From Gammaproteobacteria bacterium (GTDB lineage Bacteria; Pseudomonadota; Gammaproteobacteria; Burkholderiales; JAHFRG01): DNA of 64,000 bases. The notes under the pieces are model-generated. The model did no database searches and had not been told where the DNA came from. It saw only the letters and a list, made by a program, of their open reading frames with translations. Every line of letters begins with the position of its first letter. Position 1 is the first letter of the stretch. This document shows positions 7,400 to 49,881 of the stretch, piece by piece. The stretch spans positions 22,118 to 86,117 of the forward strand of contig JBGQCF010000004.1 of the NCBI GenBank assembly GCA_041495205.1, given 5' to 3'. Position numbers and translations under genes: made by a program.

Positions 7400-10069
7400 T
7401 TACACTGTCACCGGATTGGGTTTATCAGGGTCGATGCCATATTTCTTGATAGCCTGAGTAACCATGGCGACAGGCACTTCTCCTTCATCAGCGAGAGCTT
7501 TAATCGCTGCGACGACAACATAATAGCGGTCCATCTCGAAGAACTTGCGCAATTCCTTGCGCGTGTCGGAGCGTCCAAAACCGTCGGTGCCGAGCACCAG
7601 GTAATGCCCGGGCAGAAAGGCGCGGATCTGGTCTGCGTAAATTTTCATGTAATCCGTCGCGGCAACCACAGGCCCCTTGCGATCGTTGAGACAGGTTTCA
7701 GCATGACTCAAGCGCGGCTTCCCATCGGGATGCAGCATATTCCAGCGCTGCACATCCAATCCATCGCGGCGCAGTTGATTGAAGCTGGTGACGCTCCAGA
7801 TATCCGACGCGATCCCGAAATCCTGCCTGAGAAGTTCCGCTGCCGCAATCACTTCGCGCAGAATAGTACCGCTGCCCAGCAGTTGCACTCGCAGTGCTTT
7901 TTTGTCCGCTTGTCCCTCGCTGAATAAATACATGCCTTTGAGGATCCCTTCTTCAGCTCCTTTCGGCATGGCCGGATGAGCGTAGTTTTCGTTCATCACC
8001 GTGATGTAATAAAAGACGTCCTCCTGCTCCCGGTACATGCGGCGCAGCCCGTCCTGCATAATCACGGCAAGTTCATAAGCAAAAGTCGGGTCGTAGGAAA
8101 CACAGTTGGGAATCGTGGAAGCAATCAACTGACTGTGCCCGTCCTCGTGCTGCAAGCCTTCGCCGTTTAGCGTGGTGCGGCCGGAAGTGCCCCCGAGCAG
8201 GAAGCCGCGCGCGCGGGAATCGCCCGCCGCCCAGGCGAGGTCGCCGACGCGCTGGAAACCGAACATTGAATAGAAAATGTAGAACGGAATCATCGAAACG
8301 CCATGCGTGCTGTACGACGTGGCTGCGGCGATCCACGACGACATGGCACCGGCTTCGCAGATGCCTTCCTGCAAAATCTGCCCGTGTTTGTCTTCCTTGT
8401 AGAACATCAGCTGATCAGCGTCCTGGGGTGTGTAGAGCTGCCCCACCGAAGACCAGATGCCCAGTTGCCGGAACATGCCCTCCATGCCGAAAGTGCGCGA
8501 TTCGTCCGGGACGATAGGCACAACGTGCTTGCCGATACTTTTGTCTTTCACCAGGATGTTCAAGAGACGCACAAAAACCATGGTGGTGGAAGCTTCGCGT
8601 CCTTCACCGCCGGCTTTCAAAAAAGCGTCGAACGCCGACAGCGGCGGCACTTCCAGCGGTTCAGCTTTTCTGCGGCGCGCGGGCAGATAACCGCCCAGCG
8701 CCATGCGGTGCTCGCGCATGTAATTAAGCTCCGGCGAGCCTTCCTCGAATTTGAGATAAGGCACTTCCTCGATTTTGTCGTCGGGAATCGGCAAATTGAA
8801 ACGATCCCGGAAAGCTTTCAGGGAAGTCGTCCCCATTTTTTTCTGCTGGTGCGTGATGTTCTGCGATTCGCCCGCCTCTCCCATGCCATAGCCTTTCACC
8901 GTCTTGGCGAGTATTACCGTGGGCTGACCCTTGTGCTTCACCGCGGCACTGTAGGCGGCGTAAATCTTGTGTGGGTCGTGTCCGCCGCGGTTCAAGCGCC
9001 AGATGTCGTCGTCAGTCATGTTGGCGACCATTTCCAGGAGCTCGGGATACTTGCCGAAGAAATATTTGCGTATGTAGGCGCCGTCCTTGGCGCGATAGGT
9101 CTGATACTCGCCGTCTACGCATTCATCCATGAGCTTTTGCAAAAGCCCTTTGGTGTCCCTGGCCAGCAGCGGGTCCCAGTAGCTGCCCCAGATGAGTTTA
9201 ATCACGTTCCAGCCGGCGCCGCGAAAGTCCGCTTCCAGTTCCTGGATGATTTTGCCGTTGCCGCGCACCGGCCCGTCGAGCCGCTGCAGATTGCAGTTCA
9301 CCACGAAAATCAGATTGTCGAGCTTCTCGCGCGCGGCGATGCCGATGGCGCCCATAGATTCCGGCTCGTCCACTTCGCCGTCCCCGACAAAACACCAGAC
9401 CTTGCGTCCTTCGGTGTTGGCGATGCCGCGATCAGGCAGGTATTTCATGAAGCGCGCCTGATAGATCGCCATCAGCGGGCCAAGTCCCATCGATACGGTG
9501 GGAAACTGCCAGAAGTCGGGCATCAGCCATGGATGGGGATAGGAGGACAGGCCCTTGCCGCCCACTTCCTGGCGGAAATGGTCGAGCTGTTCCTCGGTGA
9601 GCCTTCCCAACATGAAGGCGCGGGAATAAATGCCCGGCGCCGAGTGGCCTTGCACGTAAACCAGGTCGCCGCCGTGTTTTTCAGACGGCGCGTGCCAGAA
9701 GTGGTTGTAGCCGACGTCGTACAGTGTAGCGCCGGATGCGAAGCTCGCGATATGGCCGCCGACATTGGTGTTCTTGTTGGCGCGCACCACCATGGCCAGC
9801 GCATTCCAGCGCGCGTAGGAACGGATACGGTGCTCCAGCTCGTGATTACCCGGCGAACGTTCCTCTTTTTCCGGCGGAATGGTGTTGACGTAGGCGGTAT
9901 TGGCGCTGAAGGGCAGATAAGCGCCCGAGCGGCGCGCTTTGTCAATCAGTCTTTCCAGCAGGTAATGAGCGCGGTCGGGGCCCTCCTGCTCCAGAACGGC
10001 TTCCAGCGCATCCAGCCATTCCTGCGTTTCCTGCGGATCGTGATCGGGGAATCGGTCCATGGCGGCCAC
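7400..10069 (-). CDS. aceE: pyruvate dehydrogenase E1 component (homodimeric type)
   Basis: 889 aa with a typical AceE N-terminus (DPQETQEWLDAL) and ThDP-binding region (GDGEVDEPES). Confidence 0.95.
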   Translation of the reverse strand: MAAMDRFPDHDPQETQEWLDALEAVLEQEGPDRAHYLLERLIDKARRSGAYLPFSANTAYVNTIPPEKEERSPGNHELEHRIRSYARWNALAMVVRANKNTNVGGHIASFASGATLYDVGYNHFWHAPSEKHGGDLVYVQGHSAPGIYSRAFMLGRLTEEQLDHFRQEVGGKGLSSYPHPWLMPDFWQFPTVSMGLGPLMAIYQARFMKYLPDRGIANTEGRKVWCFVGDGEVDEPESMGAIGIAAREKLDNLIFVVNCNLQRLDGPVRGNGKIIQELEADFRGAGWNVIKLIWGSYWDPLLARDTKGLLQKLMDECVDGEYQTYRAKDGAYIRKYFFGKYPELLEMVANMTDDDIWRLNRGGHDPHKIYAAYSAAVKHKGQPTVILAKTVKGYGMGEAGESQNITHQQKKMGTTSLKAFRDRFNLPIPDDKIEEVPYLKFEEGSPELNYMREHRMALGGYLPARRRKAEPLEVPPLSAFDAFLKAGGEGREASTTMVFVRLLNILVKDKSIGKHVVPIVPDESRTFGMEGMFRQLGIWSSVGQLYTPQDADQLMFYKEDKHGQILQEGICEAGAMSSWIAAATSYSTHGVSMIPFYIFYSMFGFQRVGDLAWAAGDSRARGFLLGGTSGRTTLNGEGLQHEDGHSQLIASTIPNCVSYDPTFAYELAVIMQDGLRRMYREQEDVFYYITVMNENYAHPAMPKGAEEGILKGMYLFSEGQADKKALRVQLLGSGTILREVIAAAELLRQDFGIASDIWSVTSFNQLRRDGLDVQRWNMLHPDGKPRLSHAETCLNDRKGPVVAATDYMKIYADQIRAFLPGHYLVLGTDGFGRSDTRKELRKFFEMDRYYVVVAAIKALADEGEVPVAMVTQAIKKYGIDPDKPNPVTV

Positions 10070-10233: not shown

Positions 10234-12039
10234 TTAGGTTTTGTTGGCGTCATGTCGGAATTTGACGTACGAACCCGGTGCTTCTTCCAGCGGTTTCAAC
10301 TTACCCTCGCCGGGAATACGCGCCGGCACCTTGTCACCGGCATATTTCGTCACCCACCTGTCCCAGTCCGTCCACCACGAGCCTTCATTTTGCTTGGCCC
10401 CTTGCAACCAGGTATCCGCATCAGGACTGAGTTTGGCATTGGTACGATAACCATACTTGTTGGCGAAGGGCGGATTAATCACACCGGCAACATGCCCCGA
10501 GCCGCCGAGCACGAACTTCACCGGCCCGCTGAACAAACATGCGCCGGCATAAGTGGATTTCCACGGCGCAATGTGGTCTTCCACCGTGGACAGGAAATAC
10601 ACCGGCGTTTTCACTTTGGCAAGGTCTATCGGCACGCCTGCTAACGTCAGTCCGCCCGGCTGTATCAGAAGATTCTTGATATACATGTTGCGCAAATAAA
10701 AACTGTGCATTGTTGCCGGCATGCGGGTGGAATCGGAATTCCAGTAGAGCATATCGAACGGGAACGGATCCTTGCCAAGCAGATAGTTGTTCACCACAAA
10801 CGACCAGATTAGATCGTTCGAACGCAGCATGTTGAAGGTGGTCGCCATTTCAGAGCCTTCGAGGTAGCCGCGCTCTTCCATGCGCTTTTCCAGCGCGTCC
10901 ACCCGTTGCTCGTCAACGAACACTCCCAGCTCGCCAGGGTCGCTGAAATCAATCAGGGTCGCAAAAAACGTGGCGCTTGCAATCCGCTGGTCTTGCCTCG
11001 CAGTCATGTAGCCCAGGGCCGCAGCGAGCAAGGTGCCGCCCAGGCAGTAGCCGATGGCGTTGACTTCTTTCTCGTCAGTAACTTTTTCGATGGCATCCAG
11101 CGCGGCCAGCGGGCCTTCCAGCAAATAATCCTCGAAATTCTTATGCGCGAGCTTTTCGTCCGGATTGACCCAGGAAATCACAAACACGGTGTGCCCCCGG
11201 TCCACGGCCCATTTGATGAGGGAATTCTCCTCGCGCAAATCGAGGATGTAGAACTTGTTGATCCACGGTGGAATGATGAGCAGCGGACGTCGATATACCT
11301 CTGCTGTGAAGGGCTGATACTGGATGAGTTGCATTAAATCGTTCTGGTAAATGATCTTACCTTTGGTGGTAGCGACGTTCTCGCCGAGCCTGAACGCCTC
11401 GAGGTCGGTCATCTTGATGCGTAGCTGCTTGTGTTCGCCGCGCTCCAGGTCTTCAAGCAGGTTTTTCAGGCCCTTCACCAGATTTTGGCCTCCGCTTTCT
11501 ACAGTCTCGCGCAATACTTCGGGATTGGTTAGCATGAAATTGCTCGGAGAGAGCGCATCGATAAACTGGCGCGTAAAGAAATTCACTTTCTTGGTCGTCT
11601 GCTCATCCAACCCCTCGACGCTGCCGACCACTTCATGCAAATGACGCGCGGCAATCAGATAAGACTGCTTGATGTAGTCAAACAGAAAATGTTTCTCCCA
11701 CGCCTCGTCCTTGAAGCGCTTGTCGCTGGCGTGGGGCGACACCACCGGCGGCGCGTTTTGTCCCATCATTTTCATCACCGAGCCATGCCACAGCGCAAGG
11801 TAGTCCTGCCACAGCTTCATTTGCGCTTCAGCCAGCTTGAACGGATCCGCCATCATCCTCGTGGTAAGGTCGAAGAACGCTTTGCCGATTCCCAGTTCAT
11901 CTACCATGCCCAGCGGACTGGCCCCCGCATGACGTTCCAGGAATTCGGAAATTATTTGCCGGCTCTGTCGCGCCATCTCGGCATAAGACTTGGAAAGCTG
12001 CGCCGGGCTAGTCATGGAATCAGCTCGTGGTGTGCCCAT
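10234..12039 (-). CDS. phaC: class I poly(R)-hydroxyalkanoate synthase
   Basis: 601 aa with the lipase-box variant GYCLGG and a PhaC N-terminal domain. The size fits class I. Confidence 0.88.
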   Translation of the reverse strand: MGTPRADSMTSPAQLSKSYAEMARQSRQIISEFLERHAGASPLGMVDELGIGKAFFDLTTRMMADPFKLAEAQMKLWQDYLALWHGSVMKMMGQNAPPVVSPHASDKRFKDEAWEKHFLFDYIKQSYLIAARHLHEVVGSVEGLDEQTTKKVNFFTRQFIDALSPSNFMLTNPEVLRETVESGGQNLVKGLKNLLEDLERGEHKQLRIKMTDLEAFRLGENVATTKGKIIYQNDLMQLIQYQPFTAEVYRRPLLIIPPWINKFYILDLREENSLIKWAVDRGHTVFVISWVNPDEKLAHKNFEDYLLEGPLAALDAIEKVTDEKEVNAIGYCLGGTLLAAALGYMTARQDQRIASATFFATLIDFSDPGELGVFVDEQRVDALEKRMEERGYLEGSEMATTFNMLRSNDLIWSFVVNNYLLGKDPFPFDMLYWNSDSTRMPATMHSFYLRNMYIKNLLIQPGGLTLAGVPIDLAKVKTPVYFLSTVEDHIAPWKSTYAGACLFSGPVKFVLGGSGHVAGVINPPFANKYGYRTNAKLSPDADTWLQGAKQNEGSWWTDWDRWVTKYAGDKVPARIPGEGKLKPLEEAPGSYVKFRHDANKT

Positions 12040-12759: not shown

Positions 12760-13665
12760 ATGGATCTGCCGAAACGAGTGAAAATGGTTGAGGTCAGTCC
12801 CCGCGACGGATTGCAGAACGAAGCGGCCAACGTTCCGACCCACATCAAAATCGAACTCATCGAGCGCCTTGCCGATGCCGGGCTTCAGGTGGTGGAAGCG
12901 GCGAGCTTTGTGTCACCGAAATGGGTGCCGCAGATGGCGGACAGCGCCCAGGTCATGGCCGGCATCAAGCGCAAGGCGGGGGTGAGCTATCCGGTGCTGG
13001 TGCCCAACATGAAAGGCTTTGAAGCTGCGCTTGCCGCAGGCGCGAAAGAAATCGCGGTGTTTTCGGCAGCCAGTGAAACGTTTTCGCAAAAAAATACTAA
13101 TTGCTCGATTGCAGAAGGACTGGAACGCTTCAGCGCGGTATGCGAAGCCGCGCAATCAAAAGGCATCCGCGTGCGCGGCTACATTTCCTGCGTACTCGGC
13201 TGCCCTTACGAAGGCGAAGTTGTAGCAGACAAGGTTGCGCATGTCGCGACGCTGCTTTACGACATGGGATGCTATGAAATCTCGCTGGGCGATACCATCG
13301 GCGTCGGCACGCCGGGCAAAACCAAAGCAATGATTGAGGCGGTCGCTGAAAGAGTACCGGTGGAAAAACTCGCGGGGCATTTTCACGATACTTACGGCCA
13401 GGCGCTGGCCAACGTCTATGCTGCGCTGGAATGCGGCGTGACGGTAATCGACAGCTCGGTTGCCGGCTTAGGCGGTTGCCCTTATGCGCGCGGCGCTTCA
13501 GGCAACGTCGCCAGCGAAGATGTGCTCTATATGCTGAACGGTCTGGGGATTAAAAGCGGCGTTGATCTCGACAAGCTGATAAACGCAGGTCAGTTCATTT
13601 CCGATTATCTCGGCCGCCCGCCTGTATCCAAAGTTTCGCGCGCCATCACCAGCAAGCGCGCATAA
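12760..13665 (+). CDS. hmgL: hydroxymethylglutaryl-CoA lyase
   Basis: 301 aa with N-terminal [12 protein letters not shown] and the HMGL-like TIM-barrel motifs ([22 protein letters not shown]). Confidence 0.9.
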
Positions 13666-14863: not shown

Positions 14864-15883
14864 ATGACCTCCGCTGTGACTGCTATTGAGGGGGTGCAAA
14901 GCCCCCCGGCTCCCAAAATAATCTCAAGTACCTTAACAGCCGCCCGTCTTGGGCGGCAGTATTTTATCGACCTCGTTTTCCTCAACACGACGCGGCTGTT
15001 CGCACTTGTGGTCCTGGCGCTGATGTTGGCCATACTGGTATCGCTGCTCGTCGGCAGCCTCCCGGCAATGCGCGCCTTTGGCTTTGGATTTCTGACGAGC
15101 ACCGACTGGGATCCGGTACAGGAGAAATTCGGCGCGCTGGTGCCAGTTTTCGGCACCCTGGTAACTTCGTTCATCGCACTGCTGATCGGCATTCCGGTAA
15201 GTTTCGGCATCGCGCTGTTTCTGACGGAACTATCGCCGACCTGGCTTAAGCGTCCGCTTGGCATAGCCATAGAATTGCTGGCCGGCATTCCGAGCATCAT
15301 CTACGGCATGTGGGGCCTGTTCGTGTTTGCCCCGATCTTCGCCGACTACGTGCAGCCTTGGCTGATCAAGTATATCGGCCCGCTTGCGATTGTCGGCCCG
15401 CTGTTCAGCGGCACGCCGCAAGGAATCGGCATGCTGACAGCGGGTATTATCCTTGCCATTATGGTCATTCCCTTCATCGCTTCGGTGATGCGCGACGTAT
15501 TTGAACTCGTGCCGCCCTTGCTCAAGGAATCGGCTTATGGGCTCGGCGCGACCACCTGGGAAGTAGTCTGGCACGTGGTGCTGCCGTACACGAAAATCGG
15601 TGTGGTGGGCGGGATTCTGCTCGGGCTGGGACGTGCCTTGGGCGAAACCATGGCAGTTACCTTCGTCATCGGCAATGCGCATCAAGTCTACACATCGCTG
15701 CTCGCGCCGGGCAATAGCATCGCCTCCGCACTCGCCAACGAATTCACCGAAGCCGTCGGTGACTTGTATACGGCCGCCCTGATCGAGCTGGGGCTGCTGC
15801 TGTTTCTAATCACCGTGATCGTACTAGCGCTTGCCAAGCTGCTCTTGCTGCAGCTCGCCAAGATGGAAGGCGCCCAGACCTGA
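14864..15883 (+). CDS. pstC: phosphate ABC transporter permease
   Basis: 339-aa multi-TM permease with an EAA-like loop ([12 protein letters not shown]), in pst order. Confidence 0.9.
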
Positions 15884-45144: not shown

Positions 45145-46542
45145 ATGACAAAAAAATCCAAATCCGGCAGCTCCAAACACCGGTCGGGAAGATTCAAAGA
45201 ACCGGTAACGGAGCTCACAAAACGCTATACCGCGTCTGTTGATTTCGACAAGCGGCTTGCGCCCTACGACATGCGGGCTTCGGCCGCGCATGCGCGCATG
45301 CTCAATGCCGTCGGCATCCTGAGCGCGAATGACCTCGCTGCAATTCAACATGGAATGAAGCAAATCAGCGGCGAAATCGCCTCCGGCAAATTCCTCTGGC
45401 GACTGGAGCTCGAAGACGTGCACATGAACATCGAAAACCGGCTCATCGCTTTGATTGGCGATGCCGGCAAGCGGCTGCATACCGCGCGCTCGAGAAACGA
45501 TCAGGTGGCAACCGATGTGCGGCTCTATTTGCGCGCTGCAGTTGACGACATTGCGAAGCTCATTAAAGCCGCGCAACGCGCCTTGCTCGATCTCGCCGAA
45601 AAACACGCCGCGACCGTGATGCCGGGATTTACGCACATGCAAGTCGCGCAGCCGGTCACTTTCGGCCACCATCTTCTGGCATATTTCGAAATGCTGAAGC
45701 GCGACAACGAACGGCTGGCCGATTGCCGCAAGCGGGTGAATCAATTGCCGTTGGGCAGCGCGGCGCTCGCCGGCACCAGTTACCCCATAGACCGGATGCG
45801 GGTGGCGAAGGAATTGGGTTTTGACGGAGTGTGCGAAAACTCGCTGGATGCGGTTTCCGATCGCGATTTCGCGATTGAGTTCACCGCCTGCGCGGCGCTC
45901 ATCATGACGCATCTGTCGCGCTTTTCCGAAGAGCTCATTCTGTGGATGAGCCCGGGATTCGGTTTCGTCGAGCTCGCCGACCGCTTTTGCACCGGCTCAT
46001 CCATCATGCCGCAGAAAAAAAATCCGGATGTGCCTGAACTCCTGCGCGGCAAGACCGGCAGGGTCAACGGCCACCTTGTGGCGCTACTCACCCTGATGAA
46101 AGCGCAGCCGCTCGCTTACAACAAGGACAACCAGGAAGACAAGGAGCCGCTGTTCGACACGGTGGACACCCTGGTGAACAGCCTGAGGATTTTCGCCGAG
46201 ATGATTCCGGGAATCAAAGTCAAGCGCGAAGCAATGCGGAAGATCGCAACTCAAGGTTACGCTACCGCCACCGATCTTGCCGACTATCTGGCGAAGAAGG
46301 GATTTCCATTCCGCGATGCTCATGAAGCGGTAGCGAAAGCGGTACGCTTTGCCGTCAAGCGCGGCTGCGATTTGAGCGAGCTGAAGCTCAACGAACTGCG
46401 TAAGTTTTCCAAGCTCATCGGCAAAGATGTTTATTCCGTGCTGACGCTGGAAGGCTCGGTGAACAGCCGCGACCATATCGGCGGCACGGCGCCAAAGCAG
46501 GTCAAAGCCGCGATTGCGCGTGCGCGCAAACAACTTGTTTAG
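45145..46542 (+). CDS. argH: argininosuccinate lyase
   Basis: Fumarate-lyase signature ([12 protein letters not shown]). ATG at 45145 preferred over the upstream alternative start. Confidence 0.93.
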
Positions 46543-46599
46543 AAAATGCCGGGGGCGGCCCCGACCAGCGAAGCTGAATGCGAAACGCCTATCAACTTA

Positions 46600-46870
46600 T
46601 CCCCTCTCCCCTTGAGGGAGAGGGTGGAGCCTGTCCTGAGCCTGCCGAAGGAGTGAGGGGAAATTCAAATTCGCCGGTGGCAGACCGGTAGCTGGTAACT
46701 TTCTTTTGCGTCGCCAAAAGAAAGTCACTAAAGAAAAGGCGACCCCGGTTCGCCGACTTCCCCTGCGTTCCTTAGCCAAACCGGGCGCTGCGCAACTCGC
46801 GCTACGCGCTCAGACAGTGCTCGCTGAACTTCCCCCGTTTTGGCTTCGTCACTTGGCGGCTCACAGGGGA
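46600..46870. mobile_element. MITE-like element, copy B (271 bp)
   Basis: TCCCCT...AGGGGA termini flanked by TA on both sides (46598-99 and 46871-72). Inverted homologue of 2174-2455. Internal hairpins at 46601-46623 and 46695-46727. Confidence 0.65.
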
Positions 46871-47124
46871 TAACAAAAAACCTGAACTGCCGGAATACTT
46901 TTCTACTCTGCCCCCCAATTGTTTAAGCTGTTTACCCGAGACCTTGATTCCCATGTAGTATGACCAAATCATGTCAATTTGACGCAATTAATTACACTTT
47001 TTCGGGTGTCTATTTCTAGTCGGGCCATCGTCCAAGAGTTGGAGGTGAAACCTGAGGAAAACCGAGGGCGCTTGGCTCGCCATTTCTTGCGTGTCGGGAT
47101 GAGATGCGCAAAGGAGGAACTGTC

Positions 47125-47364
47125 ATGAAGCGTTGGATGGCGCGTATTTTGTGCGTGAGTGCAGTTGGATTAGGCTGTGTAGCGTGCAGCTCGCAGCCGG
47201 TATTTCTTCGAAACCCACAAACAGGAGCGACGGCTCAGTGCGGCCCGTATTTCAATTGGACCCCATTGCAGCCAGGACTCTCCGATGCCTACGCTAAGGA
47301 AAGGGGCTGCATCGCTGATTTTCAGCGGCTTGGCTATGAGCGAACTCCCGAGACAATTCGATGA
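47125..47364 (+). CDS. small lipoprotein (cassette 1 cargo)
   Basis: 79 aa from the ATG at 47125, preceded by an AAGGAGG RBS. Signal peptide with lipobox LGCVA-C. Confidence 0.55.
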   Translation: MKRWMARILCVSAVGLGCVACSSQPVFLRNPQTGATAQCGPYFNWTPLQPGLSDAYAKERGCIADFQRLGYERTPETIR

Positions 47365-47507
47365 AGGCCCCTGTGGAGGTGGCGACGCGGCCTAACGCCA
47401 GCCGTGGACCTGATGGTTCTCCCGACGTACCGTCCTGTAACAGTATCGAGAAAACCTGGGGCAGACTGGGATGAACCAGATTCATGGGCCGTGCTGGCCG
47501 AGTCCGG

Positions 47508-47588
47508 GCCTAACCACGGCGTGCAGCGGACCGTTCAACAGCGTCGCTCTCGCGCCGCTGTTGCCTGGCCGCTGACGCAAGGTTAGGG
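47508..47588 (+). repeat. attC-like recombination site 1 (81 nt)
   Basis: Inverse core GCCTAAC and core GTTAGGG. The inner arms GCGTGCAGCGG and CCGCTGACGC pair with one unpaired G, and a further CAACAGCG/CGCTGTTG pairing is present. Confidence 0.65.
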
Positions 47589-47640
47589 TGCATCCCGAGT
47601 ACACGCGGGTCTCATTTGCTTGGGTAGAGTGACTACTTAT

Positions 47641-48090
47641 ATGTCGACTGTCCGCGCCGCCGCTGTGCGCTTGGAGCGGTTGTGCCCGCTCATTCTCCTC
47701 ATCCTCATGGGTGGCTTGGTGCCGTTTACTGCATTTCCGTTAGACCCTGTTCCTTCCTACACAGCGGAAGAGTTGCGAGAGAATGCCCGTTCGTTCCTCA
47801 TGGTTCGAGAGAAGAAGCAACCTTTGACTGCTGAAGCGGCACTTCATGCCATGGAGTTCAAGGGTTACGTGGCGGGGATTCTGGATGCGGGTACCGGCTT
47901 GTATGATCCGAAGAACCCCGATGCCAAGCTGGCTGAGTGCGCTCGCCGAAAGTCCGTGGGCGACATCGCGCACCGTGTTGCCGTACTGATCACCACAGGG
48001 CCACTTGATCGCTCAATACCTGCCCCATGGCAGCTCGGCATCTCTCTCTATGCCGCGTGCGATGACGCCGCCTGGACGTCGCCAAAGTAG
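47641..48090 (+). CDS. secreted Rap1a/Tai4-like protein (cassette 2 cargo)
   Basis: Signal-peptide-like N-terminus. FKGYVAGILDA...LAEC...SVGDIAHRVAVLI...LYAAC resembles the Rap1a immunity-protein pattern. The start is ambiguous (TTG 47620, ATG 47641 or ATG 47707). Confidence 0.45.
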   Translation: MSTVRAAAVRLERLCPLILLILMGGLVPFTAFPLDPVPSYTAEELRENARSFLMVREKKQPLTAEAALHAMEFKGYVAGILDAGTGLYDPKNPDAKLAECARRKSVGDIAHRVAVLITTGPLDRSIPAPWQLGISLYAACDDAAWTSPK

Positions 48091-48117
48091 TGGTTATCTG
48101 TGCGGGCTGTTCGTGCA

Positions 48118-48195
48118 GCCTAACCGCACGATCGACCGGACATGCCAGCGGACTTGCGCCCGCCGGCAAACGGCCGGTCATCGTGAACGTTAGAT
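48118..48195 (+). repeat. attC-like recombination site 2 (78 nt)
   Basis: Inverse core GCCTAAC and core GTTAGAT, a perfect GTTRRRY. The arms CACGATCGACCGG and CCGGTCATCGTG pair with one unpaired C. The core overlaps the next ORF's ATG (GTTAGATG). Confidence 0.7.
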
Positions 48196-49162
48196 GTCTC
48201 GGGCCACACATCGCTCTACGCGCAAGGGCCGCGATCTAGAGCTCTTAGTCGCACGCATCAAGGAGCACCAGCTCCCTGGGGCCGTTGTTCGCTCCCCCGA
48301 TCTGGTTCTCGACCGAGACACAGGTGAGAAACGAGAGGTCGACGTTGGGATTCATATCCCGCGAGAAGGTGGCGAAATTTTCATCGCCATAGAATGCCGC
48401 GACCGAAAGGCCGTTCAACACGTCGAATGGGTCGAGCAGCTTATCTGTAAGAAGCAGAGCATCGGTGCCGATACGCTGGTCGCTGTCACCAGCTCGCGGT
48501 TTTACCGACCAGCCCGCGTGAAGGCCCTAAAACATGGGGTCATTCTTACGCGAATGACTTCCCGGCTTCCGAGCGAGGTCGGCCAGCTTGCTGGTTCGTT
48601 TTTCGTGACCTTCCAGTTCGTTTCCCCTCACATATTGCGCGTCGATCTGAAGCTGCCTTCGCATTTAGTCGACGACTATGAAACCTACACTTACCGGCAC
48701 TCGCTTCTCGACCGCGACTTGAAGCTGGAAGAGCTGGCTGATGTATGGAGTAGCCCGAACCTCATCCGCACGGTCGTGAAAGAAATCCACGATTTTGCTC
48801 GTTACAAGTTCGCAAAAGTTGAACTTAAGCACACTAATGCGACCGTGTTTACGAAAACCGGTATGTTTCCGATTCTTGGTGCAAAGCTGAGCTACGAACT
48901 GAACTATGGAGAAGTGCAACTCCCGCTTCGCGCTATTCACGAGTTGGTAGCACTGGACACGCCCAACCACGACGATGCCGTTGCTTTTACGTTTGGCGCT
49001 GGGAGTGAGGTGCTCAGCGAAATAGTTCTCGACCCCGACTCAGACACGCTCCGCTGGGATATCCTGGGGCGGACGCTTCTGGGTGAAGGGAAGGTATTGA
49101 TTGGCGCCCGTTTGAAAGCAAGCAAGCCGGTGAGCATTACGACGATGCGACTCGATTTATGA
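48194..49162 (+). CDS. PD-(D/E)xK (Mrr-cat-like) restriction-endonuclease-domain protein with unknown C-terminal domain (cassette 3 cargo)
   Basis: The N-terminal roughly 120 aa read GRDLELLVARI...REVDVGI...IAIECRDRK...LVAVTSSRF, matching the helix-D...E-x-K(R) layout of Mrr-type nucleases. The remaining roughly 200 aa are beta-rich and unrecognised. Confidence 0.6.
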   Translation: MSRATHRSTRKGRDLELLVARIKEHQLPGAVVRSPDLVLDRDTGEKREVDVGIHIPREGGEIFIAIECRDRKAVQHVEWVEQLICKKQSIGADTLVAVTSSRFYRPARVKALKHGVILTRMTSRLPSEVGQLAGSFFVTFQFVSPHILRVDLKLPSHLVDDYETYTYRHSLLDRDLKLEELADVWSSPNLIRTVVKEIHDFARYKFAKVELKHTNATVFTKTGMFPILGAKLSYELNYGEVQLPLRAIHELVALDTPNHDDAVAFTFGAGSEVLSEIVLDPDSDTLRWDILGRTLLGEGKVLIGARLKASKPVSITTMRLDL

Positions 49163-49164
49163 AC

Positions 49165-49214
49165 ATCTAACTTTCGCTTACAGGGGACGCGGGACCTCCC
49201 TCGATAAAGTAGAC
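49165..49214 (+). repeat. possible degenerate short attC
   Basis: ATCTAAC (fits RYYYAAC), then CTTTCG...CGATAAAG arms, then GTAGAC, which is GTTAGAC missing one T. It is shorter than typical attC sites. Confidence 0.3.
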
Positions 49215-49245
49215 ACTTCTAGCTAACGGAAGAAGGAGGTGTCGA

Positions 49246-49332
49246 ATGGGAAGGCCGATTGGGCCAAAGAAGGTGCATCGCTACAGTGCAGAGTTCAAAC
49301 TGACGGCAGTGAAGCTGAGTCGTTATAAATAA
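49246..49332 (+). pseudogene. IS3-family transposase OrfA N-terminal stub
   Basis: The 28 codons MGRPIGPKKVHRYSAEFKLTAVKLSRYK* match the conserved YSxEFKxxAVKL HTH start of IS3/IS911-type OrfA. An AAGGAGG RBS is retained. The rest of the IS is absent. Confidence 0.6.
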
Positions 49333-49341
49333 CAAATCAAT

Positions 49342-49881
49342 ATGCAGTATGAAGCAATCATAGATTTTTGGTTTAAGGAGATTGAGCCGAAATTTTGGTG
49401 GAAAAAAGATAGTGATTTTGATCGCTTGATAGCGGACAGGTTTCTGGACGTCCATAATGCGGCGGCAAAATGCGAGCTCTATGTTTGGAGAGACCGCCCA
49501 TTGGGCAGGCTTGCTGAAATAATCGTTCTGGACCAGTTTTCCCGCAATATATATCGCAACACTCCTTTGTCGTTTGCCTACGATCCGCTTGCACTGGTTT
49601 TGGCGCAGGAAGCGATCAATGCAAAAATGAACCAATCCTTAGGCCCGGATCAAAAGGCGTTTCTTTACATGCCTTTCATGCATAGCGAGTCTCCTGTAAT
49701 CCATGAGCTCGCGGTGGAACTATTCAAGGAGCCAGGGTTGGAATCCAATTTAAAGTTCGAAATCCAGCATAAAGCCATCATTGACAGGTTTCGCCGTTAT
49801 CCGCACCGCAATGAAATTCTGGGCCGGCAATCCACCGAAGAGGAAATAAGTTTCCTGAAAGAGACAGGTTCCTCGTTTTAA
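49342..49881 (+). CDS. DUF924 family protein
   Basis: 179 aa with FWF...WWKKD N-terminus, QFSRNIYR and RYPHRNEILGR..T.EE..FL, typical of DUF924. AT-rich relative to its neighbours. Confidence 0.75.
   Translation: MQYEAIIDFWFKEIEPKFWWKKDSDFDRLIADRFLDVHNAAAKCELYVWRDRPLGRLAEIIVLDQFSRNIYRNTPLSFAYDPLALVLAQEAINAKMNQSLGPDQKAFLYMPFMHSESPVIHELAVELFKEPGLESNLKFEIQHKAIIDRFRRYPHRNEILGRQSTEEEISFLKETGSSF

What the first reader, a model, noticed from the sequence alone, without database searches (positions are those of the whole stretch)
48194..49162. Cassette-borne Mrr-type PD-(D/E)xK nuclease fused to an uncharacterised 200-aa domain
Residues about 10-120 show the Mrr-cat layout: G-x-x-LE-LV helix, then EVDV, then IAIECR-x-K, then a VAVTSS-F segment. 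This domain is fused to a roughly 200-aa beta-rich C-terminal domain that I cannot place in any family. There is no methyltransferase, antitoxin or partner gene in the cassette. It could be a single-gene defence or abortive-infection effector, or a modification-dependent nuclease whose sensor is the novel C-terminal domain.
Basis: partly seen in the sequence, partly recalled or inferred. Interest (0 to 1): 0.6.

Follow-up and report, generated by a model that had tools for sequence, protein, structure and literature searches.

The report
Cassette-borne Mrr-like nuclease, unknown C-domain
A real 322-residue gene carried alone in an integron cassette joins a restriction-enzyme-type nuclease domain (with arginine where the catalytic lysine normally sits) to a fast-evolving 200-residue domain unlike any solved structure, so it is a plausible but untested single-gene phage-defence candidate.

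Summary
Residues ~10-120 are a Mrr-type PD-(D/E)xK domain: Pfam Mrr_cat scores 23.2 bits against a cut-off of 21, and Foldseek matches AF1548, EcoT38I, MspJI, Can2 and Cap4. One correction is needed. The motif is D50...E67-x-R69, with arginine in place of the canonical lysine in every family member, and K72 is not conserved.

Residues 121-322 fold confidently (pLDDT 90) but match nothing in Pfam, PDB or BFVD. A profile of this domain finds only 28 clusters among 1.84 billion representatives. Nearly all full-length hits carry it behind the same nuclease domain. It evolves much faster than the nuclease (45% vs 67% mean identity) and is acidic, whereas the nuclease is basic.

The gene fills one integron cassette. 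An attC lies at 48118-48195, and the start ATG sits inside the GTTAGATG core. Twelve of 22 homologue loci show the same cassette boundaries (random placement 0.5%). The array has no integrase and sits in a variable spot between argH and a DUF924 gene. The gene is absent from nine genomes of the same genus.

Best reading (about 0.4): a self-contained, trigger-gated defence nuclease. Function and catalytic competence are untested.

The parts
48118..48195 (+). attC site that ends the preceding cassette and starts this one. The inverse core GCCTAAC is at 48118-48124 and the core GTTAGAT at 48189-48195. The recombination point G|TT lies at 48189/48190.
   Evidence: The ssDNA fold pairs the two cores. 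My attC scan recovers this site. A 79%-identical attC lies at the same locus in a same-genus genome.
48194..49162 (+). The 322-aa ORF. Its start ATG overlaps the attC core (GTTAGATG), and there is no Shine-Dalgarno sequence or promoter of its own.
   Evidence: The same ATG- or GTG-in-core layout occurs in 10 loci: this window and nine homologue loci.
48194..48553 (+). N-terminal Mrr-like PD-(D/E)xK domain (residues 1-120). Candidate active site: E16, D50, E67 and R69, with invariant D70, R71, E81 and K86. The domain is basic (pI 9.9).
   Evidence: Pfam Mrr_cat. Foldseek matches to 1y88, EcoT38I, MspJI, Can2 and Cap4 over 125-141 columns. Conservation. Anchor alignment to EcoKMrr.
48554..49159 (+). 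C-terminal 202-residue beta-rich domain of unknown fold family. Only S275 and W288 are invariant. The domain is acidic (pI 5.8).
   Evidence: AF2 pLDDT 90. No Pfam, PHROGs, PDB or BFVD match. 28 clusters in 1.84 billion representatives; nearly all full-length ones carry it behind the nuclease domain.
49165..49215 (+). Short, degenerate attC of this cassette. The inverse core ATCTAAC (49165-49171) is the exact complement of the GTTAGAT at the cassette start. The 3' core is imperfect (GTAGACA, 49209-49215).
   Evidence: Inverted repeat I16. The hairpin is not significant (z 0.29). The same 'stop + ACATCTAAC' layout is seen in homologue loci.
49246..49332 (+). A 28-codon stub of an IS3-type OrfA (MGRPIGPKKVHRYSAEFKLTAVKLS...) that ends the array 9 nt before the DUF924 gene.
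   Evidence: Pfam HTH_Tnp_1 is below threshold (E 0.025). There is no other copy in the assembly.
47508..47588 (+). attC of the first cassette (GCCTAAC ... GTTAGGG).
   Evidence: Fold energy -32.9 kcal/mol, z -5.3, with 0 of 200 shuffles as stable. Also found.
47620..48090 (+). Neighbouring cassette ORF of 156 aa with no family match. It is a separate cassette, not a partner of the nuclease.
   Evidence: It is bounded by attC 47508-47588 and attC 48118-48195.

Best explanation
This is a self-contained conflict (phage-defence-type) nuclease carried as a one-gene integron cassette.

**Proposed mechanism**
- The basic N-terminal Mrr-like PD-(D/E)xK domain binds and cuts DNA at a metal site formed by E16, D50 and E67.
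- R69, perhaps helped by invariant K86 on the second core helix, takes the place of the canonical lysine.
- The acidic, rapidly diverging C-terminal domain packs against the nuclease and gates it. It recognises an invader-derived cue, most likely a phage protein or another non-DNA ligand.
- Recognition releases the nuclease to cut DNA, which restricts the invader or aborts the infection.

**What is shown**
- The domain architecture and the nuclease fold.
- The conservation pattern.
- The obligate fusion of the two domains.
- Cassette and mobile-element carriage, sporadic distribution, and the absence of any partner gene.

**What is inferred**
- Catalytic activity.
- Gating by the C-terminal domain.
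- The anti-phage role.
For: **Nuclease domain**
- Pfam Mrr_cat scores above the cut-off.
- Foldseek's top hits are Mrr-type nucleases of restriction and defence proteins: AF1548, EcoT38I, MspJI, AspBHI, Can2, Cdn1, Cap4 and Avs4.
- E16, D50 and E67 are conserved (invariant or in at least 90% of members) across 30 and 21 diverse sequences.

**C-terminal domain**
- Nearly all full-length hits of the C-domain profile carry it behind this nuclease domain.
- Conversely, the nuclease domain is always followed by an unannotated tail of about 180-200 aa.
- Apparent C-domain-only proteins are artefacts of gene calling or frameshifts.
- The C domain evolves faster: mean pairwise identity is 45% against 67% for the nuclease, and the nuclease is the more conserved in 99.8% of pairs.
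- The C domain is acidic in 29 of 30 homologues while the nuclease domain is basic.

**Mobility and context**
- One gene fills one cassette. Core and inverse core flank the gene in 12 of 22 loci, against 0.5% of random placements.
- The gene is absent from 9 same-genus genomes. The argH-DUF924 spot holds different cassettes in relatives.
- Neighbours elsewhere include TIR-NACHT, Fic, VapBC, PRTase-CE/ORC-CDC6-like, DUF4145 and TniQ.

**Precedent**
- Single-gene Mrr_cat fusion cassettes (Epona, Divona) protect against phages (bioRxiv 10.1101/2024.07.02.601686).
Against: - There is no functional data.
- PADLOC (2023), NCBIfam and PHROGs give no hit.
- The canonical Lys is Arg in every member, so nuclease activity is unproven.
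- Association with defence genes is anecdotal and no partner or neighbour is conserved.
- No promoter-like site or Shine-Dalgarno sequence precedes the gene. The array lacks an integrase, so expression here is uncertain.
- Occasional pseudogenes exist (L019; L121).
Confidence: 0.4

Rival explanations
1. It is a Type IV (modification-dependent) restriction endonuclease. The C-terminal domain would be a new reader of modified DNA bases that directs the N-terminal Mrr-like nuclease, in the same domain order as PvuRts1I/AbaSI.
For: - Structural neighbours include MspJI, AspBHI and EcoT38I.
- There is no methyltransferase in the cassette or as a conserved neighbour.
- A fast-evolving second domain fits a specificity module.
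- An invariant Trp (W288) and Ser (S275) on one hairpin could form a base pocket.
Against: - The C domain has no similarity to SRA, PUA/EVE or winged-helix readers in PDB (best Foldseek E 0.1, TM <= 0.16).
- It is acidic, with net charge -3 to -12 in 29 of 30 homologues, which is unusual for a DNA-binding module.
Confidence: 0.2
2. It is a catalytically dead nuclease-fold protein. With Arg in place of the catalytic Lys, the N domain would only bind nucleic acid or act as an adaptor, and the protein would have a non-nucleolytic role (regulator, inhibitor or decoy).
For: - E-x-R replaces E-x-K in every family member examined.
- There are weak sub-threshold hits to the 'inactive REase' family NA-iREase1: 14.5 bits here and 21 bits in P0072, against a cut-off of 27.
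Against: - All three acidic metal ligands (E16, D50, E67) and several nearby charged residues (D70, R71, E81, K86) are invariant or nearly so. Such conservation is not expected for a decayed site.
- Active-site rearrangements, including a Lys that migrated to the second core helix, occur in this superfamily (PMC3424549).
Confidence: 0.15
3. It is a selfish toxin or addiction-type cassette that stabilises the array or element carrying it, with the C domain acting as an in-cis inhibitor, rather than a phage-defence gene.
For: - Cassette arrays commonly hold toxin-type genes, and VapBC/PIN cassettes neighbour homologues.
- The acidic C domain sits next to a basic nuclease domain.
Against: - There is no separate antitoxin gene, and no labile partner is evident.
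- Stand-alone copies occur outside arrays.
Confidence: 0.1

Closest known systems
Mrr_cat (PF04471) nuclease domains: EcoKMrr, MspJI/AspBHI, AF1548 (1Y88), EcoT38I
   Same: - It has the same alpha-beta-beta-beta-alpha-beta core.
- It has the helix-1 Glu, the strand-2 Asp, the strand-3 Glu/Gln and the TSS-F motif.
- Spacing to EcoKMrr is identical.
   Different: - The canonical Lys is Arg (E-C-R-D-R signature).
- The nuclease is N-terminal.
- The partner domain is not a winged helix, SRA or HhH domain.
Single-gene integron-cassette defence proteins with Mrr-type nucleases: Epona and Divona of the Vibrio cholerae chromosomal integron (bioRxiv 10.1101/2024.07.02.601686)
   Same: Each is one gene per cassette, with a Mrr-type nuclease fused to a second domain, carried in sedentary cassette arrays.
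   Different: - Epona's partner is a two-TM holin-like domain. Divona has DUF4365 and crr6 domains.
- Here the partner is a soluble acidic beta-rich domain with no family.
Sensor-nuclease effectors: Cap4 (nuclease + SAVED), Can2/Card1 (CARF + nuclease), Avs4 nuclease domain
   Same: The nuclease domain is a structural neighbour. The architecture pairs a nuclease with a larger regulatory domain.
   Different: - The C domain is not SAVED, CARF or STAND.
- No cyclase or CRISPR partner is present.
- The protein is much smaller.
PvuRts1I/AbaSI-type Type IV enzymes
   Same: Size is about 300-320 aa, with the order N-terminal nuclease then C-terminal beta-rich domain, and no methyltransferase.
   Different: Those enzymes use a Vsr-like nuclease and an SRA-like reader (from my own knowledge). 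Neither fold was found here.
Pa4535 (1Y0K)-type active-site variant
   Same: A PD-(D/E)xK protein whose Lys has moved to the second core helix (PMC3424549). Here invariant K86 lies on that helix.

Membership tests
Mrr_cat (PF04471) PD-(D/E)xK nuclease domain | Profile score above Pfam's gathering cut-off | tested here: met
   The score is 23.2 bits against a cut-off of 21, E 7.8e-5, residues 43-119. The margin is narrow. Relatives P0085 (23.9) and P0093 (24.2) pass, while P0072 (20.4) and P0076 (17.9) fall just below.
Mrr_cat (PF04471) PD-(D/E)xK nuclease domain | Restriction-endonuclease-like fold | tested here: met
   Foldseek gives 1y88 at E 3.6e-5, EcoT38I at 1.6e-4 and MspJI at 3.7e-4. 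Can2, Cap4 and AspBHI also match, all over the N-terminal 125-141 columns.
Mrr_cat (PF04471) PD-(D/E)xK nuclease domain | Catalytic D ... (E/Q)-x-K triad | tested here: not met
   D50 and E67 align with EcoKMrr D203 and Q219, but the Lys position (K221) is R69 in every member examined. The Lys may be replaced functionally by R69 or K86. This was not testable.
Type IV modification-dependent restriction enzymes | A recognisable modified-DNA reader domain (winged helix, SRA, PUA/EVE) | tested here: not met
   The C-domain model (pLDDT 90) has no PDB match better than E 0.1 and TM 0.16. There is no Pfam hit.
Type IV modification-dependent restriction enzymes | Stand-alone nuclease without a cognate methyltransferase | tested here: met
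   This is a one-ORF cassette. No conserved neighbour exists in 22 loci.
Type IV modification-dependent restriction enzymes | Cleavage dependent on modified DNA | not testable with these tools
   This needs biochemistry.
Integron gene cassette | Bounded by attC sites with complementary RYYYAAC / GTTRRRY cores and a hairpin | tested here: met
   - The upstream attC (48118-48195) folds with its cores paired.
- The cassette's own attC is short and degenerate, but its inverse core ATCTAAC is the exact complement of the starting GTTAGAT.
- 11 of 22 loci have exact complementary pairs, against 0.15% of random placements.
Integron gene cassette | Integron integrase next to the array | tested here: not met
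   No IntI passes the cut-off in the genome. Only a 72-aa IntI-like C-terminal fragment exists, on another contig. The array is therefore an integrase-less cluster of attC sites (a CALIN).
Integron gene cassette | Cassette content varies between close relatives at a fixed site | tested here: met
   Homology between the window and the closest same-genus genome compared (G005) ends at window position ~46927. The space between a conserved upstream block and the DUF924 gene ranges from ~23 bp to 2.4 kb among same-genus genomes. G005 holds other cassettes and a 79%-similar attC.
Known defence systems (PADLOC-DB v2.0.0) | Match to any model | tested here: not met
   0 families at E <= 1.
NA-iREase1 (PF22722, inactive REase) | Profile score above the cut-off | tested here: not met
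   14.5 bits against a cut-off of 27.

The most novel reading that the evidence does not exclude
The 'ECRDR' nuclease and its C-terminal domain form a previously undescribed single-protein anti-phage system that spreads between phyla as a minimal integron cassette. The C domain would be a new fold acting as the invader sensor. The active site would be a working D...E-x-R variant of the PD-(D/E)xK motif.
Probability: 0.3. Interest if true: 0.65.

Novelty: new variant of a known kind. Interest (0 to 1): 0.5.

Why it matters
- **Defence-gene discovery.** Integron cassettes have recently been shown to be reservoirs of compact phage-defence genes. Most validated examples come from Vibrio and from clinical mobile integrons. 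This family comes from environmental bacteria of several phyla and has no annotation anywhere ('hypothetical protein').
- **Three testable oddities.**
  - It has an invariant Arg at the catalytic Lys position of a Mrr-type nuclease.
  - Its confidently folded 200-residue domain has no structural relative in PDB or BFVD.
  - Its cassette is so compact that the start codon lies inside the recombination core.
- **If it protects against phages,** it adds a new sensor domain to the defence repertoire and a new active-site variant to the PD-(D/E)xK superfamily.
- **If it does not,** it is one more uncharacterised nuclease-fold cassette gene.

Tried and rejected
- **Family scans.** PADLOC, NCBIfam and PHROGs gave nothing usable.
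- **PDB sequence searches.** The single sequence, the full-length profile and the N-domain profile returned only chance hits.
- **hhalign against E. coli Mrr.** The N-domain profile aligned only the TSS-F segment. I therefore anchored the catalytic residues by spacing.
- **Stand-alone C domains.** The 202-aa proteins turned out to be a late-start gene call on an intact full-length ORF (L120) and a frameshifted copy (L121).
- **L027 integrase.** The tyrosine recombinase beside the L027 array is not an integron integrase by NCBIfam (53.5 bits vs 265).
- **Strict attC finder.** It missed the sites in homologue loci, whose cores vary (GTTATAC, GTTACAG). They were found by inspection and then tested against random placements.
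- **Distant C domains.** hhalign of the C-domain profile against more distant 'ECRDR' proteins (P0060, the Vibrio tubiashii protein) was not significant.
- **Mobile-element collections.** No full-length relative in 72,556 plasmids or 50,697 phages.
- **Other scans.** Rfam found nothing, and no sigma-70 promoter-like site lies in 46500-49400.

Full report
**1. The observation**

The + strand ORF 48194..49162 encodes 322 residues. It is a real gene.
- A word-indexed search of 5.8 billion proteins finds 67 clusters. About 50 are full length at 43-72% identity, nearly all unnamed or called 'hypothetical protein'.
- AlphaFold2 with a 30-sequence alignment gives pLDDT 87.4 and pTM 0.81.
- G+C content is unremarkable for the window.

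**2. N-terminal domain**

Evidence for a Mrr-type nuclease fold:
- Pfam Mrr_cat matches residues 43-119 to profile positions 30-106 without a gap. The score is 23.2 bits against a gathering cut-off of 21.
- Foldseek of the full model against PDB returns only Mrr-type PD-(D/E)xK domains, each over about 125-141 columns. These are AF1548/1Y88 (E 3.6e-5), EcoT38I, MspJI, VC1899, Can2, Cdn1, AspBHI, Cap4, PaqCI and Avs4.

Conserved residues (invariant or in at least 90% of sequences) across 30 full-length relatives, and across 21 more diverse N domains, include E16, S34, P35, D40, T43, R47, E48, D50, E67, C68, R69, D70, R71, W79, E81, K86 and K110.

Mapping of the catalytic residues:
- I anchored on the shared TSS-F motif. 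The distance E67->F103 equals EcoKMrr Q219->F255 (36 residues in both). D50 sits where Mrr has D203, with a one-residue longer hairpin.
- The active-site equivalents are therefore E16 (helix 1), D50 and E67, with R69 at the position of the canonical Lys.
- All 70 members in which the motif was picked out automatically read E-x-R (64 of them ECRDR), four more read by eye do too, and none has E-x-K.

Is the site still active?
- The superfamily tolerates rearranged sites, including a Lys that moved to the second core helix in Pa4535 (PMC3424549).
- Here invariant K86 lies on that helix.
- Retention of all acidic ligands argues for a working metal site. Activity remains inferred.

**3. C-terminal domain**

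- Residues 121-322, modelled alone, give pLDDT 90.0 and pTM 0.78. The domain has two short helical segments and about twelve strands, some very long.
- It has no relative in Pfam (16 members scanned) or PHROGs.
- It has no fold match in PDB (best E 0.1, TM <= 0.16) or in BFVD (best E 0.026).
- A profile of 16 C domains was run against 1.84 billion cluster representatives. It finds 28 proteins at E <= 1e-3.
  - Almost every full-length hit is 296-330 aa with the domain at about 114-320, behind the nuclease domain.
  - Apart from two long repetitive proteins with short weak matches, the exceptions are two proteins with longer or divergent N-termini (P0082, P0089) and one whose N-terminal part shows no nuclease motif (P0083).
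- Searching with the N domain alone gives 76 clusters. All are 209-382 aa (most about 290-340), and Mrr_cat is their only annotated domain.
- The 202-aa 'C-only' proteins are artefacts. L120 has an intact full-length frame and L121 is frameshifted. The fusion is therefore obligate.
- The C domain diverges much faster than the N domain. Mean pairwise identity is 44.7% against 66.7%, and N exceeds C in 99.8% of pairs. In the most distant members the values are 15-18% against 54-61%.
- Only S275 and W288 are invariant. That pattern suggests binding rather than catalysis.
- The C domain is acidic in 29 of 30 homologues (mean pI 5.25), while the N domain is basic (mean pI 9.45).

**4. Context in the window**

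- Two attC hairpins lie at 47508-47588 (z -5.3) and 48118-48195.
- The gene's ATG lies inside the core of the second attC (GTTAGATG).
- Two nucleotides after the stop comes ATCTAAC, the exact complement of that core (I16). It opens a short, degenerate attC that ends in GTAGACA.
- A 28-codon IS3 OrfA stub follows, then a conserved DUF924 gene.
- The cassette therefore holds this ORF only.
- No integron integrase passes the cut-off anywhere in the 2.24-Mb assembly. A 72-residue IntI-like C-terminal fragment lies on another contig.
- The gene is single-copy. It is absent from nine same-genus genomes, and only one of 31 same-order genomes has even an N-domain relative.
- In same-genus genomes the DUF924 gene is conserved at 81-91% identity. 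The space between a conserved upstream block and DUF924 varies from ~23 bp to 2.4 kb.
- One relative (G005) carries other cassettes there, with a 79%-similar attC. Homology with the window ends at ~46927.
- This is an integrase-less, sedentary cassette array in a betaproteobacterial MAG. Its argH is 75% identical to that of a Nitrosospira MAG.
- No promoter-like site precedes the gene. Expression would need read-through, for example from argH.

**5. Context of homologues**

I examined 22 loci with full-length genes: the window, assemblies fetched by exact protein match, genome contigs and metagenome contigs.

| Feature | Observed (of 22) | Random placement in the same loci |
|---|---|---|
| GTTRRRY within 60 nt upstream of the start | 14 | 5.3% |
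| RYYYAAC within 30 nt after the stop | 13 | 2.5% |
| Both | 12 | 0.5% |
| Exact complementary pair | 11 | 0.15% |

(All; sequences.)

- In ten loci, counting the window, the start codon sits in the core itself (GTTAGATG, GTTAAATG or GTTAGGTG).
- The family therefore travels largely as a minimal cassette made of one ORF plus one attC.
- Other copies lie elsewhere:
  - in Tn7-like cargo next to DUF4145 in Cupriavidus;
  - beside TIR-NACHT, Fic and DUF2130 genes;
  - beside VapBC;
  - beside dUTPase_2, PRTase-CE and ORC-CDC6-like genes;
  - alone in a cyanobacterium.
- No neighbour is conserved.
- Hosts span Desulfobacterota, Pseudomonadota, Verrucomicrobiota and Cyanobacteria.
- No full-length copy occurs in the plasmid or phage collections.
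- A more distant 'ECRHR' relative sits in a cassette-like array on Vibrio tubiashii plasmid p251.

**6. Interpretation**

- The architecture, autonomy, mobility, patchy distribution and fast-evolving second domain fit a single-protein conflict nuclease.
- Cassette-borne single-gene Mrr_cat fusions are experimentally anti-phage in the V. cholerae integron (Epona, Divona).
- Because the second domain is acidic and unlike any DNA reader, I favour a trigger-gated (abortive-infection-type) nuclease at 0.4 over a Type IV modification-dependent enzyme at 0.2.
- The remaining rivals are an inactive nuclease fold with a non-catalytic role (0.15) and a toxin or addiction role (0.1).
- None of these is tested.

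**7. Novelty**

- The kind is known: a nuclease plus accessory-domain defence candidate carried in an integron cassette.
- The variant is new in three respects: the E-x-R site, a C domain with no family or fold relative in the libraries available, and the cassette-embedded start codon.
- The family is rare: 28 clusters at 50% identity among 1.84 billion representatives.
- Interest is moderate. It is a clean, cheap-to-test candidate rather than a demonstrated new mechanism.

Noticed in passing
window 46590-46890: A ~220-290-bp dispersed repeat just downstream of argH has more than 25 copies (75-94% identity) on at least 17 contigs of this genome. It also occurs at the same locus in same-genus genomes. 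It looks like a MITE or REP-like element. It contains the 'PLSPKGEG'-type hairpin at 46600-46661.
   Followed up: partly
L002 1498-1716 (-) = G000 C21:30244-30468: A 72-residue fragment that closely resembles the C-terminus of integron integrases (HTFRHSF...[32 protein letters not shown]..SPLD). It scores 104.9 bits on TIGR02249 positions 241-315. It is an intI remnant on a different contig from the array.
   Followed up: partly
G000 contig C47 at 9129-9191, 11027-11116 and 13087-13155; C34 at 15752-15809: Further attC-like hairpins with RYYYAAC/GTTRRRY cores elsewhere in the same genome. They suggest at least one more cassette array.
   Followed up: no
L029 240-1500 (same-genus genome G005, same argH-DUF924 spot): A different cassette set occupies this spot. 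One split ORF pair has a faint HEPN_AbiU2 hit. An attC lies at 844-912. A 166-aa ORF (911-1411) has sub-threshold Mrr_cat, UPF0102 and Hjc hits, so it is another small nuclease-fold cassette.
   Followed up: partly
window 48189-48196 and nine homologue loci (L010, L011, L018, L019, L122, L125, L126, L128, L130): The start codon is embedded in the attC core (GTTAGATG, GTTAAATG or GTTAGGTG). The cassette brings no 5' UTR or ribosome-binding site of its own, so translation signals must come from whichever attC precedes it.
   Followed up: partly
L019 5001-5963 (contig labelled Akkermansia muciniphila MAG): This copy has an in-frame stop at the invariant Trp79 codon. Its flanks are nearly identical to L011, which comes from an unrelated metagenome. 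It is probably a pseudogene, and the contig may have been binned into the wrong genome.
   Followed up: no
L119 (Vibrio tubiashii ATCC 19109 plasmid p251, 99149-109445): A same-strand array with ~130-200-bp spacers carries DUF2971, AAA ATPase + HNH, GNAT, a 293-aa 'restriction endonuclease' with an ECRHR motif (43% identical to the N domain here), and a kinase + PP2C pair. It looks like a cassette array rich in defence-type genes.
   Followed up: partly
window 47390-47507: A second GCCTAAC lies 26 nt after the lipoprotein ORF, ahead of attC 47508-47588. It may be a decayed attC or an empty cassette. An earlier first-stage note raised this too.
   Followed up: no
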